Below, piece after piece: positions 3,344 to 54,998 of a stretch of 55,436 nt of DNA (its first letter is position 1; each line of letters opens with the position of its first letter). The notes below the pieces were generated by a model that was not told where the DNA came from, made no database searches, and saw nothing but the letters and a program-made list of their open reading frames with translations. The translations under genes and the position numbers were made by a program. Origin of the DNA: a virus (Duplodnaviria > Heunggongvirae > Uroviricota > Caudoviricetes); IMG/VR virus record IMGVR_UViG_3300033153_012477, positions 1 through 55,436 of that record; one strand, given 5' to 3'.

Positions 3344-3502
3344 CTACTTCACACATTTCTGACCATCGCAGGTCATTTCTACTCTTGGAATAAGAGAAGT
3401 GTTTGGGTTAGGTTGAGGAGTAGTTTTACTCCCAAAAGTGTACACAAGCACTATAACAGCCACTACGACTATCACAGCTACAATCGTGGAAAGAGATTTC
3501 AT
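3344..3502 (-). CDS. Small membrane protein (52 aa)
   Basis: GGAGG RBS; MKSLSTIVAVIVVVAVIVLVYTFG... with C-terminal CDGQKC. Confidence 0.65.
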   Translation of the reverse strand: MKSLSTIVAVIVVVAVIVLVYTFGSKTTPQPNPNTSLIPRVEMTCDGQKCVK

Positions 3503-5112: not shown

Positions 5113-5580
5113 TGGTGGAGCTGGGGGTAATCGAAACCCCGTCCGAAAGCTCTTCTTAGTCCTGATCTACGTGTGTAGTCTATTTCAACCTATAGACAGG
5201 CTGTGAGTTTTGGTTGTAGGTACACTGCCCGTATCACAACTTTATTTTGAGTCGCAGCTACCATTCGACTTGGGGGTGCTGTGACCTAAACCATAGCACC
5301 CTCCACCACTTACTTTTGAGAAAAGCAAGAAAACATGGGGAAAGTGTTATAACGCCCCTCCCACGTCTGCGGTCCTTCTCCTGTTTCTTGGCTAGGACAG
5401 CCTCATGGACTCAAAGCTATTAAGCTGCTAACCTTAGGCTAGGTGCTCTTTTCGCTCTGAATGCGTCCAAAGAAACTACATTTTCGTCAGTTACTTTTGT
5501 TTGAGTCTTTTAAAGAGTCCCGACTCACCTCTACACGCACAAAACTCGTCTGCTGCCCCCGTCGAAACCAGTGCAGCCCC
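5113..5580 (-). ncRNA. ssrA: tmRNA; tag (A)DENVVSLDAFRAKRAPSLRLAA at 5420-5488
   Basis: 5' GGGGCTGCACTGGTTTCGAC, 3' CAGCTCCACCA with G3.U70, T arm GGGGT-TTCGATT-ACCCC, tag ORF after AAAAGTAACT ending LAA-TAA-TAG. Confidence 0.95.
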
Positions 5581-25081: not shown

Positions 25082-25103
25082 AATTCTCGCTCGTCCTATT
25101 AAG

Positions 25104-25215
25104 AAGGGGAACAGTCACTAAGGGTAAGTATTTTAAGTGCTCGTCATAGACAAACACTAGATGTCAAACCGAAGTCAGACAGAAGCATAGAAGTAACCCT
25201 TAGCTACACCACCTT
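25104..25215 (-). ncRNA. Candidate divergent Y-like RNA
   Basis: AAGG-TGGTGTA-GCTAAGGG-TTACTTC ... CCCTTAGT-GACTGTTCC-CCTT, parallel to the Y motifs at 28.6-31.1 kb; two internal hairpins, one UUCG-capped. Confidence 0.45.
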
Positions 25216-25231
25216 GTTTAAAACCCTTATA

Positions 25232-27601: not shown

Positions 27602-28513
27602 CTACTTTAGCACTCTCTTTTTAGGAACTCCTAGCTCACTAGAACAACTGTTCATTTTGCAAACTACTCCCTTAGTGCTTAATTCTTCAAATTCCTTCTT
27701 GAAGTCTCCCGTGTTTAGATCAAAGTATGGATCTGAATCCCGTCTTCGATAATCCAAGCAAGGATAGACTAAACCATCATATGCTACAAATATGTTGTGT
27801 ATTCCACAATCACACTTAAAGTATTTAAACTGATTCAAACTATTAGCGAATAAATAATTTGAGATAGTTTCTTTACTTCTTATCTCACCGTCCTCTTCAA
27901 AGGTTATTGTGAGATCTTCACCTTTTTGCTCACGCATGTACCAAGCTTCATCGTACTCAGACAAAGACTTTTGGTCAGTGTGTTCTACCTTAGCTATTAT
28001 TGAGGTAACACTTTCTGAACAGAGTTCTTTTATCTTTAGGTAGTCTTTTTTATATGTTGGAAAATTTGTGTCCAGCATATAAACTACCTCAAGCTTAGGT
28101 ACTTTATTAGATAAGTATTTCACCTTGTTGTAGAACGTGTCAAATTTTTCTCTACTAGGATGGAAGGATGTCTCTAACTCAATATCAGGTTTCACCTTTA
28201 TAACTTTATCATAAAAATCTAAACTCTTGCTGAGATTAGTATACATCTCTACTTTAACTTTAAGATTTTTAAGAACAGTTAATATCTCTGGGTGAAGAGA
28301 AGGCTCTCCTCCAAAAAGAGTAAGCTTCACATTTCTCAGAGTACCTACATAATTAATGAACTCCACTACCTTGTCCTGATTGGTAGACACCTCTAAACCA
28401 TAGAGGTCACAGTACTTGCAGGAGTAATTACAAAGGGTATTGATCTCCCAAGTAATGGCGTACCTATTAATTGGGGGCATGTGGTTGTGATCTTTTACTT
28501 CCAATATCTTCAT
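27602..28513 (-). CDS. Radical SAM protein, paralog of 19724-20632
   Basis: CNYSCKYC, GGEPSLHP, VYPCLDY. Confidence 0.88.
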   Translation of the reverse strand: MKILEVKDHNHMPPINRYAITWEINTLCNYSCKYCDLYGLEVSTNQDKVVEFINYVGTLRNVKLTLFGGEPSLHPEILTVLKNLKVKVEMYTNLSKSLDFYDKVIKVKPDIELETSFHPSREKFDTFYNKVKYLSNKVPKLEVVYMLDTNFPTYKKDYLKIKELCSESVTSIIAKVEHTDQKSLSEYDEAWYMREQKGEDLTITFEEDGEIRSKETISNYLFANSLNQFKYFKCDCGIHNIFVAYDGLVYPCLDYRRRDSDPYFDLNTGDFKKEFEELSTKGVVCKMNSCSSELGVPKKRVLK

Positions 28514-28548: not shown

Positions 28549-28649
28549 TGGAGCGTGAGATAGGATTTGAACCTATAACCTTCCTAGATCTTCTTTCGCT
28601 TTAACACGAGATTCTTCCTAGACTGCTGACCAGACTCAGCTTCACACGC
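28549..28649 (-). ncRNA. tRNA-like RNA with CCA and a 30-nt expanded anticodon region
   Basis: GCGTGTG/CTCACGC acceptor, D arm, ATAGG-TTCAAAT-CCTAT T arm; no 7-nt anticodon loop. Confidence 0.7.
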
Positions 28650-28654
28650 ATATA

Positions 28655-28793
28655 TGGTGGAGAGGGCAAGGATTTGAACCTGCGACACCCTGGTTTACCA
28701 CGAAGTATGTCTAATCTACGCCACGCTTTTAACAGCGGGTTCAAACGATAAGACTCTTTTCTCCAGGTGCTCTACCAACTGAGCTACCTCTCC
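28655..28793 (-). ncRNA. CCA-ended tRNA-like RNA carrying the Y RNA (Ro-binding) helix in place of the anticodon loop
   Basis: GGAGAGG/CCTCTCC-A-CCA, D and T arms, CCTGG/CCAGG stem enclosing 69 nt with ATCGTTTGAACC then GTGGCGTAGA. Confidence 0.8.
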
Positions 28794-29118: not shown

Positions 29119-29182
29119 TCCCTTGTCATGTGTTAAAATATAAGGCTTCTCCTAAAATTGCTTCCAAGAGAAGCCCTAAAAT

Positions 29183-29312
29183 GAGGGTTCAAACGATTAG
29201 ACAGTTTTTCGTGCTCTAACCAACTGAGCTACCCATCCCCGAAGGGATATAGTGGGACTCGAACCCACGCCACGTCGTTACAAGCGATGAAAGTCTAAAA
29301 TCTACGCCACTC
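29183..29312 (-). ncRNA. YrlA-type Y RNA 1 (permuted tRNA mimic)
   Basis: 5' GTGGCGTAGA; T arm; UUCG-capped acceptor-like stem; D arm; 3' ATCGTTTGAACC; next to a Ro60 gene. Confidence 0.85.
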
Positions 29313-29346
29313 ACATTCATTTTTTTTTAAAATAAAGATATAGAAA

Positions 29347-29478
29347 GACGGGTTCAAACGAACAGACAAATTTTAGTGCTTTATCCAGTTAAGCTACAAA
29401 ATCCCGAAGGAGATTGAGGGGATTCGAACCCACTATCACTCGTTTAGCATACGAAGTAAGCCTACTCTACGCCACGTC
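29347..29478 (-). ncRNA. YrlA-type Y RNA 2
   Basis: Same architecture; termini extended by AAGATATAGAA/TTCTATATCTT pairing. Confidence 0.85.
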
Positions 29479-29497
29479 CGTTCTATATCTTCATAAA

Positions 29498-30397
29498 TTA
29501 AATTTCAATGTTCTTGATAAAGTCAATAGCATTGCTACCGTTCTCTATCGCTTCCATAACCTCGAAGACCTTTTCAGACCAACCTGAGATTAGGTGAACA
29601 TTTTTCTCAGCAATAACATCCAGAGGAGCTGTTCCATAACCACTTAAATCGAATAAATACAATTTAGAGTTAGGGAATCTATTTCTGTACTTCTGCCACT
29701 CAGAGTTCATAGTTGCGTTTCCACCTCTAGAATTCCAAAGTTGACAATCAGTAAAGATCATTACTTTATCTACTTCGATGTTCCTTTTATTCAACCACTC
29801 TAGTACTTTGTACCCGTTAGTAGAATAACCAACCTCTCCCTCTCTCTTATAAAGATTAAGGGTATTAGCTAGAACATCTCCAGAGCTAAAGTCTGTAACT
29901 TTCCAAGTATCTCCAAAAAAACCTGTAACAACATTCTTACATTTTGTTTGAAGAAGTTGCCCAAGAAGTAACCCAATATCATATAACTGAACTTGGGACT
30001 TTGGAGAAATAGGTTGTTGCATAGATCCTGACACGTCACTTGCTATCAGCACTCTAGTATCCTCACCAAAACCTTTAAGATTTTCCACAGAAGCTTTCAC
30101 TGCTTTTTCAATAGCTTTGTTAAGCTGTTTAGTAGCAAAAGGATCTAGGTTAGTTGTCACTGTTTCTGTGTAAGAACTTCCCCAAAACCCTCTCCTGTGT
30201 GAAGGTTCATTACCTTCTAAGTTTCTGTAAGCAGACCAAAACCTAAAAGGCAATTGCTTAGATCTTTGAACTGCTTTAGGATCAGAAAGTTTTTCACAAA
30301 CAAGATTAACTAAATCTTTTGAAGCACCATACTTAAGAATATTTCTCAAGTTACGCAACAACGCCGAAAGCTTTGTTCTTAGCTTCTTCCGAAGCAT
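29498..30397 (-). pseudogene. rsr: Ro60/Rsr (TROVE) C-terminal fragment with vWA domain
   Basis: ALLRNLRNI, LPFRFWSAY, MIDAS DVSGSM, IFTDCQ; out of frame with the N-terminal part. Confidence 0.85.
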
Positions 30398-31064
30398 AAG
30401 TTTGCTGCCCTAATTTTGAGAATTCAACTTCCCAAGTATAAGGTTCAGCCAAATCATCCTCAACAAGTTTCTTGAAAAGATCTTTCTGCTTATCATCCAT
30501 TGGTTTTGGATGAGTCAAGAAGAGTGCATCCCTAAGCTTGATTGCTCCGTCTCTGTTGTACTTTGCTAACTGATACTCATCAAACTTATGAAAAGACTCC
30601 GCTACTGCTTTTTTAAGAGCATTAGGAAGTTTTCCTAGTTTTTTTGTTTCAGTTCTCTCATTTGCATGAGCAAAGTATGACAAGATTTCAGTGATCTCAT
30701 CAGCTCTTTGAATAACTCTAGTTGTAGATTTCTTCAAAGTTTTAGGATTACGTTGTCCTTTTTGATTCCCCTCATTGAAGTTCTTCAAAAGCTCCACCAT
30801 TAATACTAAAGGCACTGATCTTAGATACATCTTCTCTCTTGCATACACCGCCAGTTTACAAACTAGTTCAGGATCAACCTTAGAGATTGTATCTCGTAAA
30901 CGAGATAACTGGTCGTCTGCCTTAGGTGAATAAAACTTAGGTTGCAAAGACGCAGTACAAACCTGAGAATACAAATCCATTTCGGGGGTCATGGTGTAAG
31001 CCACAGCTCCTTCGTGGTTTGAAGTTTTTCTAGGGTTAGTACGTTGTTGATTGAAACGTGACAT
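30351..31064 (-). pseudogene. rsr: Ro60/Rsr (TROVE) N-terminal fragment
   Basis: NHEGAVAY, AVYAREKMYLRS, FDEYQLAKY, LRDALFLTHPKP, TWEVE; start after GGAGG. Confidence 0.88.
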
Positions 31065-31081
31065 TTCATCCTCCATAATAA

Positions 31082-31148
31082 AAAATAGGGTTCAAATGAT
31101 AAGAGGTTTATTTCCCCAAGAAGTATCTCTTATCTACGCCACTATTTT
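31082..31148 (-). ncRNA. Minimal Y-like hairpin in the rsr 5' leader
   Basis: AAAATAG-TGGCGTA-GATAAGAG-ATACTTC...CTCTTATC-ATTTGAACC-CTATTTT. Confidence 0.75.
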
Positions 31149-31151
31149 GTT

Positions 31152-31190
31152 GACCTGTACAAATTTATACAGGTCTAATAACACTGTCAA
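31152..31190 (-). promoter_or_regulatory. rsr promoter with an operator-like inverted repeat over the -10 box
   Basis: TTGACA-17-TAAATT; GACCTGTA-N8-TACAGGTC. Confidence 0.7.
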
Positions 31191-31299
31191 CACTTTTTTA
31201 ATTTTTTTTAACAATTAAAAAAAATTAGACAACATCTACTGCATAAAGTTACAATCAAAAAGGATCATATTAGAAGATTATTAGGAAAGCTTATATTTT

Positions 31300-32025
31300 A
31301 TGGAAGGATACGACATATCTAAATTAGATCTCTTTGAGATTAAAAACTTAAAGAGAATGGAGCTTTGCCGCATACACTCGGTACTCTTGTTCTTATATAA
31401 CAAACTACACCAAGAGCCTAGAATAGCTTTTAAATACACTGAGCTTGAAGATATGATGAACTATAATCTAGCACACCTAACACTGCTTAAGATTGAAAAG
31501 TTGGGTCTAATTGACATAGTTCAGGAGCCTAACAACAAGAGACCTGTCATTGTCGGATTGAAGAGTAATGCTGAAATACAAGATCTCCTTAATGGGGATA
31601 AAAGAGTAGAGTTTGAAAGATATAATGAAAAGAACAAGCTCTCAGTTATAGATTTTAAGGAAGCTATAGGTTGCAAGCACCTATATGTCCACTTCGATAC
31701 AAAACAGATAGACTCGTGGATGAGAAATATCAATAAAGGGGCATGGAATAGGTACAAATTCTTAGCTACAGCTAAGATAATAACTTTCTTTAATAGCAGT
31801 CCTGATATAAAAACTGGAACACTTAATAAGAGAAATGCTCAAAATAACAAAAAAAATATAAAAACAATTGTATCTGAAATATATGAAAAAGTTCCAAGGA
31901 GCCGACAAGAGATCCTTAAAAAACAGTTTAGAAACACTGTAGAGCACCACGCTATCCAAACTGATGGGACTTTCCCAAACATGGTTGCTGGTTATTTACA
32001 TAAATTGGGTTATAGGGATTTTTAA
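31300..32025 (+). CDS. Hypothetical protein, possible winged-helix DNA-binding domain
   Basis: Divergent from rsr; L..IEKLGLI.I..E pattern resembles a wHTH wing. Confidence 0.6.
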   Translation: MEGYDISKLDLFEIKNLKRMELCRIHSVLLFLYNKLHQEPRIAFKYTELEDMMNYNLAHLTLLKIEKLGLIDIVQEPNNKRPVIVGLKSNAEIQDLLNGDKRVEFERYNEKNKLSVIDFKEAIGCKHLYVHFDTKQIDSWMRNINKGAWNRYKFLATAKIITFFNSSPDIKTGTLNKRNAQNNKKNIKTIVSEIYEKVPRSRQEILKKQFRNTVEHHAIQTDGTFPNMVAGYLHKLGYRDF

Positions 32026-54922: not shown

Positions 54923-54998
54923 GCTCCTATAGCTCAGTTGGCAGAGCAGCATTTTCTAAAAATGTTTGTCGCCAGTTCGACCCTGGCTAGGAGCACCA
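54923..54998 (+). tRNA. Amber suppressor tRNA, anticodon CTA
   Basis: 76-nt cloverleaf; GCATT-TTCTAAA-AATGT places CTA at 34-36 (54956-54958); CCA end. Confidence 0.88.

What the first reader, a model, noticed from the sequence alone, without database searches (positions are those of the whole stretch)
31082..31190. Minimal Y-RNA hairpin as the 5' leader of rsr: candidate Ro60 autoregulation
The predicted transcript starts about 7 nt before a 67-nt hairpin that holds only the Ro-binding motif pair (TGGCGTA-G / ATTTGAACC, plus ATACTTC). It ends about 8 nt before the rsr RBS, and there is no tRNA domain. Inference: Rsr binds its own mRNA leader, titrated by the downstream Y RNAs, or the hairpin is released as a mini Y RNA.
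Basis: partly seen in the sequence, partly recalled or inferred. Interest (0 to 1): 0.7.

Follow-up and report, generated by a model that had tools for sequence, protein, structure and literature searches.

The report
Mini Y RNA heading phage rsr operon
The hairpin in front of this phage's Ro60 (rsr) gene is a genuine small Y RNA of a kind already known from bacteria and one Thermus phage; a Y RNA directly ahead of rsr is the usual layout in phages, so self-regulation of Ro60 is possible but not needed to explain it.

Summary
On the minus strand a conserved promoter (-35 at 31190-31185, -10/-7 at 31167-31160) sits about 7 nt before a 67-nt hairpin (31148-31082). The hairpin carries the same Ro60-binding stem as the locus's other Y RNAs, has no tRNA-like part, and ends 7 nt before the GGAGG of rsr (ATG at 31064).

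A covariance model seeded on this hairpin finds about 200 same-strand modules in 80 phage rsr loci and 204 in 80 Bacteroidota loci. Covariation is strong: 93.8% of cells paired, and 18 of 19 pairs change on both sides.

- In phages, Y arrays usually lie directly upstream of rsr. In 48 of 65 loci the last module ends 70 nt or less before the start codon.
- In Bacteroidota genomes the arrays lie downstream of rsr.
- In mixed arrays the mini form is enriched at the promoter end (26 of 33), not next to rsr (16 of 33).
- Two close relatives keep the leader hairpin with compensatory changes. A third has the same promoter and an intact rsr but no hairpin.

My best reading is a YrlB/Yrl2-class mini Y RNA that is the first element of the operon. 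Autoregulation is untested (about 0.2). In this record rsr carries a 47-nt frameshifting deletion. The scan has noted similar "Y-like hairpin before Ro60" cases on other DNA.

The parts
31160..31190 (-). Promoter of the rsr/Y RNA operon: TTGACA at 31190-31185, then TAAATT(TG) at 31167-31160. The predicted transcript start is near 31155.
   Evidence: Consensus scan, 10 of 12 matches. GTTGACAG and the -10/-7 box are conserved in the three close relatives L283-L285. Similar promoters lie 3-15 nt before the first Y module in many phage loci.
31152..31175 (.). Perfect 8-bp inverted repeat, GACCTGTA, 8 nt, TACAGGTC, bracketing the -10/-7 box. It is a candidate operator for a DNA-binding regulator.
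   Evidence: Single exact match in the window. The repeat is kept in L284, and in L285 it is kept through paired changes (CTGTA/TACAG to CTATA/TATAG). The function is inferred.
31082..31148 (-). Mini Y RNA (YrlB/Yrl2-class): Ro60-binding stem, AUACUUC, a short apical region and no tRNA-like domain.
   Evidence: Model R2 scores it 70.1 bits, E 7e-19, the top hit. Covariation of the family structure is shown. Orthologues with compensatory changes occur in L284 and L283.
31065..31081 (-). A 17-nt linker: a U-rich tail (UUAUUAU), Shine-Dalgarno GGAGG at 31074-31070, and a 5-nt spacer.
   Evidence: Sequence. The linker is nearly identical in L284 and L283. U-runs follow 24% of phage Y modules, against 4% in background sequence.
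30351..31064 (-). rsr N-terminal fragment (237 aa, TROVE domain). It ends at a stop codon created by a 47-nt deletion.
29498..30397 (-). rsr C-terminal fragment (rest of the TROVE domain plus the Ro60 vWA domain), in the +1 frame.
29344..29483 (-). Long Y RNA 1, with a permuted tRNA-like domain (YrlA-like).
   Evidence: R2 37.9 bits. Rfam YrlA matches below threshold at 23.1 bits.
29179..29318 (-). Long Y RNA 2 (YrlA-like), followed by a terminator-like hairpin at 29178-29141.
   Evidence: R2 27.5 bits. Rfam YrlA matches at 26.9 bits. Terminator scan.
28655..28793 (-). tRNA-shaped RNA with the Ro60-binding stem in place of the anticodon loop.
Evidence: The Rfam tRNA model matches at 45.2 bits with a 69-nt insert. 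The TGGCGTAGA and TTTGAACCC motifs lie inside it.
25101..25220 (-). A further Y-type module, about 2.4 kb downstream of the locus's last rsr-linked gene (the radical-SAM gene ending at 27602).
   Evidence: R2 48.3 bits, E 7e-12.

Best explanation
The hairpin is a bona fide mini Y RNA: the Ro60/Rsr-binding stem capped by a short loop, like YrlB, Yrn2 and phiLo Yrl2. It is the first element of the phage's rsr/Y RNA operon.

A conserved promoter starts transcription about 7 nt before it, so every rsr transcript is born with this Y RNA as its 5' end. That much is shown from the sequence layout.

The rest is inferred. Rsr, from the phage where the gene is intact or otherwise from the host, binds the stem. 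Cleavage in the U-rich linker, or ordinary 3'-to-5' decay of the mRNA body, then stops at the protein-bound stem. This leaves a stable RNA of about 65-70 nt that acts in trans like the other Y RNAs of the locus. The layout mainly guarantees that a Y RNA is made together with Rsr. It is the normal layout of phage rsr loci, not a special regulatory device of this gene.
For: **Module identity**
- The motifs are identical to those of the locus's other Y RNAs.
- The hairpin is the top hit (70.1 bits) of a model built from 52 relatives.
- The family structure is 93.8% paired, and 18 of 19 pairs change on both sides. Slid controls give 36-52%.

**Layout**
- All of about 200 modules in phage loci lie on the rsr strand.
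- In 48 of 65 distinct loci the last module ends 70 nt or less before the start codon (median 36 nt). The proximal module is a mini in 30 loci and a long tRNA-like form in 18.
- In mixed arrays the mini is the first module in 26 of 33 (19.1 expected, permutation P 0.009). It is rsr-proximal in only 16 of 33.
- Promoters lie a few nt before the first module in many loci.

**Close relatives**
- L284 and L283 keep the promoter, the mini Y RNA and a 16-17-nt linker before rsr, with compensatory stem changes.
- L285 keeps the promoter and an intact rsr, lacks the hairpin, and has two minis downstream.

**Literature**
- M. smegmatis YrlA and YrlB lie upstream of rsr and come from one precursor. Hairpin-type Y RNAs exist in three bacteria, and D. 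radiodurans Yrn2 needs Rsr for stable accumulation (PMC4201824).
- The phiLo Yrl1 and Yrl2 hairpins lie upstream of the phage Ro60 gene and bind it in gel-shift assays (PMC12135203).
Against: - There are no expression data. Neither a discrete small RNA nor binding by Rsr is shown for this sequence.
- Only 7 nt separate the stem from the Shine-Dalgarno sequence. Release would therefore leave an rsr mRNA with almost no leader, and an Rsr bound to the unprocessed transcript could well interfere with ribosome loading.
- rsr is frameshifted in this record, so the partner protein may be missing here.
- The array-order statistic is not corrected for relatedness among loci.
Confidence: 0.6

Rival explanations
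1. The hairpin is a cis-acting autogenous operator. Rsr that is not occupied by free Y RNAs binds the Y stem on its own mRNA, 7 nt from the Shine-Dalgarno sequence, and blocks 30S loading (or changes mRNA stability). Rsr synthesis would then be tuned to the Y RNA pool. This could coexist with release of the hairpin as a Y RNA.
For: - The leader carries the complete, best-scoring binding module.
- It spans about -84 to -18 relative to the AUG. From general knowledge, a bound 60-kDa ring there would lie within the region a 30S subunit contacts.
- Tight stem-to-start spacing of 14-20 nt recurs in about 17 phage loci and is conserved in L284 and L283.
- Earlier notes of this scan report Y-like hairpins at the ribosome-binding site of other rsr genes (unchecked).
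Against: - L285 drives an intact rsr from the same promoter and ribosome-binding site without the hairpin.
- The closest cellular rsr genes (Bacteroidota, 50-58% identity) place 192 of 204 modules downstream.
- The rsr-proximal position is filled equally by mini and long forms, and the mini is not enriched there.
- U-rich tails and tight packing occur equally between Y modules, so they are not specific to the rsr junction.
- I found no publication on Rsr autoregulation.
Confidence: 0.2
2. The element works through structure alone. The stem followed by U6 acts as a leaky terminator that yields many short Y transcripts per read-through rsr mRNA, and/or as a 5' stem-loop that stabilises the mRNA. 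Neither role depends on Rsr binding.
For: - A run of U6 directly follows the stem.
- U-runs of 4 or more follow 24% of phage Y modules, against 4% in background sequence.
- The transcript begins only about 7 nt before the stem.
Against: - The terminator scan did not call it.
- The stem next to the U-run is AU-rich (AAAAUAG/CUAUUUU) and the predicted fold is weak (-13.9 kcal/mol, z -0.29).
- This reading does not explain why the exact Ro60-binding motifs are conserved.
Confidence: 0.1
3. The hairpin is a functionless leftover in a locus that is decaying after loss of rsr.
For: rsr carries a 47-nt frameshifting deletion in this record.
Against: - The hairpin is the best-scoring module of about 400 found.
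- All four other Y modules of the record are also intact.
- Relatives with an intact rsr keep the hairpin.
- The deletion may be very recent or an assembly artefact.
Confidence: 0.05

Closest known systems
Hairpin-type bacterial Y RNAs: S. Typhimurium YrlB, M. smegmatis YrlB and D. radiodurans Yrn2 (Chen et al. 2014, PMC4201824)
   Same: - A long stem formed by the 5' and 3' ends carries the Rsr-binding motif (GNCGAAN0-1G; here GGCGUAG).
- The loop is small and there is no full tRNA-like domain.
- They are encoded next to rsr on the same strand.
- In M. smegmatis they lie upstream of rsr and are cut from a common precursor.
   Different: - This element is phage-encoded.
- It sits only 17 nt from the rsr start codon and about 7 nt from the promoter.
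- The 5' motif has U where the published consensus has A.
- WUACUUC follows the inner stem almost invariantly.
- Nothing has been tested experimentally.
Thermus phage phiLo Yrl1/Yrl2 with phiRo60 (PMC12135203)
   Same: Y RNA-like hairpins lie in the non-coding region directly upstream of a phage Ro60 gene. Yrl2 is a single hairpin. Binding to the phage Ro60 was shown by gel shift and cryo-EM.
   Different: - The phage and host lineages differ (Thermus against a probable Bacteroidota host).
- I did not compare the sequences directly.
- The present locus also has long tRNA-like Y RNAs downstream of rsr.
YrlA (Rfam RF02553)
   Same: It has the same kind of Ro60-binding stem. The two long Y RNAs downstream of this rsr match its tRNA-like core below threshold (23-27 bits).
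   Different: The leader hairpin has no T or D arms and gives no RF02553 match. Even the long modules of 18 related phage and Bacteroidota loci stay below the 69-bit gathering score.
Autogenous translational operators that copy the protein's RNA target (E. coli thrS leader, ribosomal-protein leaders such as S15, the pnp leader); from general knowledge
   Same: An RNA-binding protein's own mRNA leader carries a copy of its natural RNA ligand next to the ribosome-binding site.
   Different: Here the leader element is the ligand itself, not a mimic. It is absent from a close relative, and no repression has been shown.

Membership tests
Bacterial/phage Y RNA, hairpin (YrlB/Yrn2/Yrl2) type | Encoded within a few kb of rsr on the same strand | tested here: met
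   The hairpin ends 17 nt before the rsr ATG on the same strand. All of about 400 related modules are on the rsr strand.
Bacterial/phage Y RNA, hairpin (YrlB/Yrn2/Yrl2) type | Terminal stem carrying the conserved Rsr-binding motif (GNCGAAN0-1G-like 5' strand opposite a conserved 3' strand with a bulge) | tested here: met
   GGCGUAG lies opposite UUUGAACCC with an AA bulge. GGCGUAG and GGYGAAG are the common forms in the family alignment. Position 5 is U rather than the published A.
Bacterial/phage Y RNA, hairpin (YrlB/Yrn2/Yrl2) type | Helices maintained by compensatory change across relatives | tested here: met
   93.8% of cells are paired and 18 of 19 pairs change on both sides; slid controls give 36-52%. 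The alignment was fitted to the model, so it leans towards this structure. An independent MAFFT alignment of close relatives also shows paired changes.
Bacterial/phage Y RNA, hairpin (YrlB/Yrn2/Yrl2) type | Small apical loop and no tRNA-like domain | tested here: met
   21 nt lie between the strands of the inner stem. There is no ARAGORN, Rfam tRNA or YrlA hit.
Bacterial/phage Y RNA, hairpin (YrlB/Yrn2/Yrl2) type | Accumulates as a discrete small RNA that is bound by Rsr and depends on it | not testable with these tools
   This needs a Northern blot or RNA-seq plus immunoprecipitation or gel shift.
YrlA (Rfam RF02553) | Permuted tRNA-like domain (T arm, acceptor-like stem, D arm) inside the Y stem | tested here: not met
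   RF02553 does not match 31082-31150 even at E up to 10. The apical region is too short to hold the arms.
Autogenous translational operator (target mimicry) | A copy of the protein's RNA ligand in its own 5' UTR, next to the ribosome-binding site | tested here: met
   The complete binding module lies 7 nt before GGAGG. The promoter is upstream of it.
Autogenous translational operator (target mimicry) | Operator position conserved with the gene among orthologues | tested here: inconclusive
   - Kept in L284 and L283.
- Absent in L285, which has the same promoter.
- Common in phages.
- Abuts the rsr start in only 2 of the 80 nearest Bacteroidota loci (L212, L264); three more have distant upstream modules.
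- The mini form is not enriched at the rsr-proximal position.
Autogenous translational operator (target mimicry) | The protein represses translation or stability of its own mRNA through the element | not testable with these tools
   This needs reporter and toeprint assays.
Intrinsic terminator / attenuator | A GC-rich stem directly followed by a U-run | tested here: inconclusive
   U6 follows the stem, but the adjacent 7 bp are AU-rich. The consensus scan did not call it, and the fold energy is weak.

The most novel reading that the evidence does not exclude
In phages generally, the Y RNA that abuts the rsr ribosome-binding site (14-20 nt from the start codon in about 17 loci) doubles as an operator. 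Free Ro60/Rsr would bind the unprocessed leader and shut off its own translation, and the pool of mature Y RNAs would titrate this. That would give Ro60 a ribosomal-protein-style feedback loop that has never been described.
Probability: 0.2. Interest if true: 0.6.

Novelty: new member of a known kind. Interest (0 to 1): 0.3.

Why it matters
For this window, the result settles what the hairpin is: an unannotated but canonical mini Y RNA that no Rfam family covers. It also shows that the "leader" position is the standard phage layout rather than an oddity.

The survey gives three reusable things:
- a covariance-supported model of the Ro60-binding stem, which finds about 400 modules;
- the observation that phages mostly put Y arrays before rsr, whereas the nearest Bacteroidota genomes put them after it;
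- a natural pair of close relatives with and without the leader hairpin (L284 and L285), which makes the autoregulation idea cheaply testable.

If feedback were shown, it would add a control loop to Ro60 biology.

Tried and rejected
- **Exact-motif scan of IMG/VR.** The pattern TGGCGTAGA, 25-55 nt, TTTGAACC returned only chance matches: 110 loci, none near an rsr and none with a stem. One scan was wasted.
- **Thermodynamic significance.** The z-score was -0.29 for the hairpin and -0.50 for the whole leader. Folding energy is uninformative here and the support comes from covariation. An alternative pairing of the Shine-Dalgarno sequence with the CCC of the 3' strand appears in the minimum-energy fold of the long leader but is not significant, so I dropped it.
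- **Rfam.** No family covers the hairpin. RF02553 also fails at its gathering score on the long modules of 18 related loci.
- **GenBank phage collection (blastn).** No match.
- **MAFFT alignment of hand-picked minis.** It misaligned the 3' strands. I replaced it by iterating a covariance model from a single seed.
- **Pfam and PHROGs for the divergent ORF 31300-32025 and its neighbours.** No hits, so whether it is the regulator that binds the promoter palindrome is unknown.
- **Literature on Rsr autoregulation.** The search returned only papers on PNPase autoregulation. The review PMC10870794 is not held.

Full report
**What is there**

The window is the first 55 kb of a 192.7-kb uncultured virus record that CheckV estimates to be 44% complete. 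All features below are on the minus strand.

- rsr and a conserved ORF of unknown function (31300-32025, plus strand) diverge from a 223-bp intergenic region.
- That region holds TTGACA (31190-31185), a 17-nt spacer and TAAATT (31167-31162). The octamer TAAATTTG (31167-31160) also fits the Bacteroidota -7 box.
- About 7 nt after the predicted start comes a 67-nt hairpin (31148-31082). It has an outer stem AAAAUAG/CUAUUUU, a helix U-GGCG-UA over UG-AA-CC, an inner stem GAUAAGAG/CUCUUAUC, then AUACUUC and a short apical region.
- Next come UUAUUAU, GGAGG (31074-31070) and the rsr ATG (31064). This ATG aligns with the N-termini of homologues.

The gap to the Shine-Dalgarno sequence is 7 nt rather than 8.

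**Is it more than chance?**

Folding energy says nothing (z -0.29). The motifs do.

- TGGCGTAGA and TTTGAACCC each occur exactly four times on this strand, always paired within one element. The paired pattern has no other match in the whole record.
- The four elements are the leader hairpin, two long Y RNAs just after rsr (29483-29344 and 29318-29179), and a tRNA-shaped RNA that carries the stem in place of its anticodon loop (28793-28655).
- The two long Y RNAs match the tRNA-like core of Rfam YrlA below threshold.
- Both stems differ between the four copies by paired changes: outer AUAG/CUAU, GACG/CGUC, GAG/CUC and GCG/CGC; inner GAUAAGAG/CUCUUAUC against GAGUAGGC/GUCUGUUC, and so on.

**Family survey**

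I collected 80 phage rsr loci from IMG/VR using an alignment of Rsr N-termini.

- A covariance model built from the window hairpin alone found 82 matches, all on the rsr strand.
- The 52 best matches give a structure with 93.8% of cells paired and 18 of 19 pairs changing on both sides. Partner-slid controls give 36-52%.
- A second model, R2, built from those 52 found 203 matches, again all on the rsr strand. The window hairpin was the top hit (70.1 bits, E 7e-19).
- In the window R2 also finds the two long Y RNAs and a further module at 25220-25101 (48.3 bits). These are the only four matches R2 finds in the 192.7-kb record. R2 does not detect the strand-permuted module inside the tRNA-shaped RNA.
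- The conserved core is G-UGGCG-U-AG, a stem, WUACUUC, then the return stem and C-G-yUUGUUCCC.
- No Rfam family covers the hairpin. The long modules of 18 related loci do not reach the YrlA gathering score either.

**Layout**

- In 65 distinct phage loci with upstream modules, the last module ends 70 nt or less before the rsr start in 48 loci and 50 nt or less in 44. The median is 36 nt, and about 17 loci have 14-20 nt, like the window's 17.
- The rsr-proximal module is a mini (110 nt or less) in 30 loci and a long tRNA-like form in 18.
- In 33 arrays holding both kinds, the promoter-end module is a mini in 26 (19.1 expected, permutation P 0.009, not corrected for relatedness). The rsr-end module is a mini in 16, which is no enrichment.
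- Sigma-70-like promoters lie 3-15 nt before the first module in many loci.
- U-runs of 4 or more follow 24% of modules, whether or not rsr comes next, against 4% in background sequence.
- The best cellular relatives of this Rsr are Bacteroidota (Chitinophaga, Saprospiraceae, Flavobacterium and Chryseobacterium; 50-58% identity). There R2 finds 204 modules, all on the rsr strand, and 192 of them lie downstream of rsr. Only two loci have a module abutting the start.

So the window combines the phage habit (a mini at the promoter end, before rsr) with the host-like habit (long Y RNAs after rsr). The contrast between phages and bacteria may be partly confounded by host lineage, because the more distant phage loci probably infect other phyla.

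**Close relatives**

A metagenome scan gave three close relatives.

| Locus | Rsr identity | Arrangement |
|---|---|---|
| L284 | 88% | promoter, mini Y (3413-3483), 17 nt, intact rsr of 536 aa, then one mini and two long Y RNAs |
| L283 | 84% | promoter, mini Y (1715-1791), 16 nt, rsr |
| L285 | 81% | same promoter and ribosome-binding site, intact rsr of 533 aa, no leader hairpin; two minis and one long Y RNA after rsr |

- In the MAFFT alignment the promoter and the U-rich linker plus Shine-Dalgarno sequence are nearly invariant. The hairpin changes by structure-preserving substitutions.
- In L283 the outer stem is AUAA/UUAU and the inner stem GGUAAGA/UCUUACC. In L284 the inner stem has an A-to-G change that gives a G-U pair.
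- The hairpin is cleanly absent from the L285 alignment.

The leader hairpin is therefore under selection for its structure where it is present, yet rsr can do without it.

**State of rsr here**

Relative to L284, the window lacks 47 nt encoding residues 234-249 (the conserved W-x-E-L-I...G-Y-M segment). This splits rsr into a 237-aa ORF and a 299-aa ORF in different frames. Either the gene was lost recently or the assembly is wrong. All five Y modules are intact. In L283 an insertion of about 816 nt with its own ORF interrupts rsr at the same spot.

**Mechanism**

- *Shown from sequence:* the hairpin is a canonical Ro60-binding module, and it must be the 5' end of any rsr transcript from this promoter.
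- *Inferred:* Rsr binds it. Cleavage in the AU-rich linker, or ordinary 3'-to-5' decay of the mRNA, halts at the protected stem. This leaves a mini Y RNA of about 65-70 nt that acts in trans.

This matches published cases. M. smegmatis YrlA and YrlB lie upstream of rsr and come from one precursor, hairpin-type Y RNAs occur in three bacteria, and Yrn2 depends on Rsr for stable accumulation (PMC4201824). The phiLo Yrl1 and Yrl2 hairpins lie upstream of the phage Ro60 gene and bind it in vitro (PMC12135203).

**Autoregulation**

Autoregulation remains possible. A bound ring 7 nt from the Shine-Dalgarno sequence could hinder ribosome loading. Against it are four points:
- the L285 variant without the hairpin;
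- the downstream arrays of Bacteroidota genomes;
- the lack of mini enrichment next to rsr;
- the absence of any published report.

I put it at about 0.2. Other windows of this scan carry similar notes about Y-like hairpins before Ro60 genes. I did not check those notes.

**Verdict**

The hairpin is a new member of a known kind, of modest interest.

Noticed in passing
window 30351-30397 (-); L283:2537-3352: The window's rsr has a 47-nt frameshifting deletion (residues 234-249 of the intact L284 protein). In relative L283 the same site carries an insertion of about 816 nt with its own ORF, which has a Cys..Cys..His..His finger-like motif. This may be a mobile intron or homing-endonuclease element, and the deletion could be a repair scar at a homing site.
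   Followed up: partly
window 31152-31175: A perfect inverted repeat (GACCTGTA, 8 nt, TACAGGTC) brackets the -10/-7 box of the rsr promoter. It is kept in L284, and in L285 it is kept through paired changes. It is a candidate operator, so the operon may be controlled at transcription. The divergent ORF 31300-32025 is 73% identical to its L284 counterpart but has no Pfam or PHROG match.
   Followed up: partly
L119-L198 (phage) versus L203-L282 (Bacteroidota genomes): The two sets show mirror-image layouts. About 187 of 199 Y modules in phage loci lie upstream of rsr, whereas 192 of 204 in the nearest Bacteroidota genomes lie downstream. All are on the rsr strand, and arrays reach 8 modules (for example L184).
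   Followed up: yes
alignments A4-A7 (for example window 31125-31119): The heptamer WUACUUC directly after the inner stem is almost invariant across about 400 mini and long modules. Mini loops often continue UUnnGGA. A U-rich 3' tail follows 24% of modules. No Rfam family models this stem, and RF02553 stays below its gathering score on this lineage's long Y RNAs.
   Followed up: partly
window 25101-25220 (-): A fifth Y-type module (R2 48.3 bits) lies several kb from rsr, beyond the radical-SAM and phosphatase genes. It is about 120 nt long, between the mini and long forms.
   Followed up: partly
window 28655-28793 (-) and 28552-28649 (-): One tRNA-shaped RNA has the Ro60-binding stem in place of its anticodon loop. 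It is followed by a second tRNA-like RNA with a 42-nt insert in place of the anticodon arm. Both lie after a thioredoxin gene downstream of the Y RNAs.
   Followed up: no
window 31200-31226: A perfect 12-bp AT-only inverted repeat (AATTTTTTTTAA, TTG, TTAAAAAAAATT) lies between the divergent promoters. It is not conserved in L284 or L285.
   Followed up: no
window 5113-5580 (-), 54923-54998 (+): The phage encodes a tmRNA and a CUA-anticodon (amber-reading) tRNA, which ARAGORN calls tRNA-Pyl, besides nine ordinary tRNAs.
   Followed up: no
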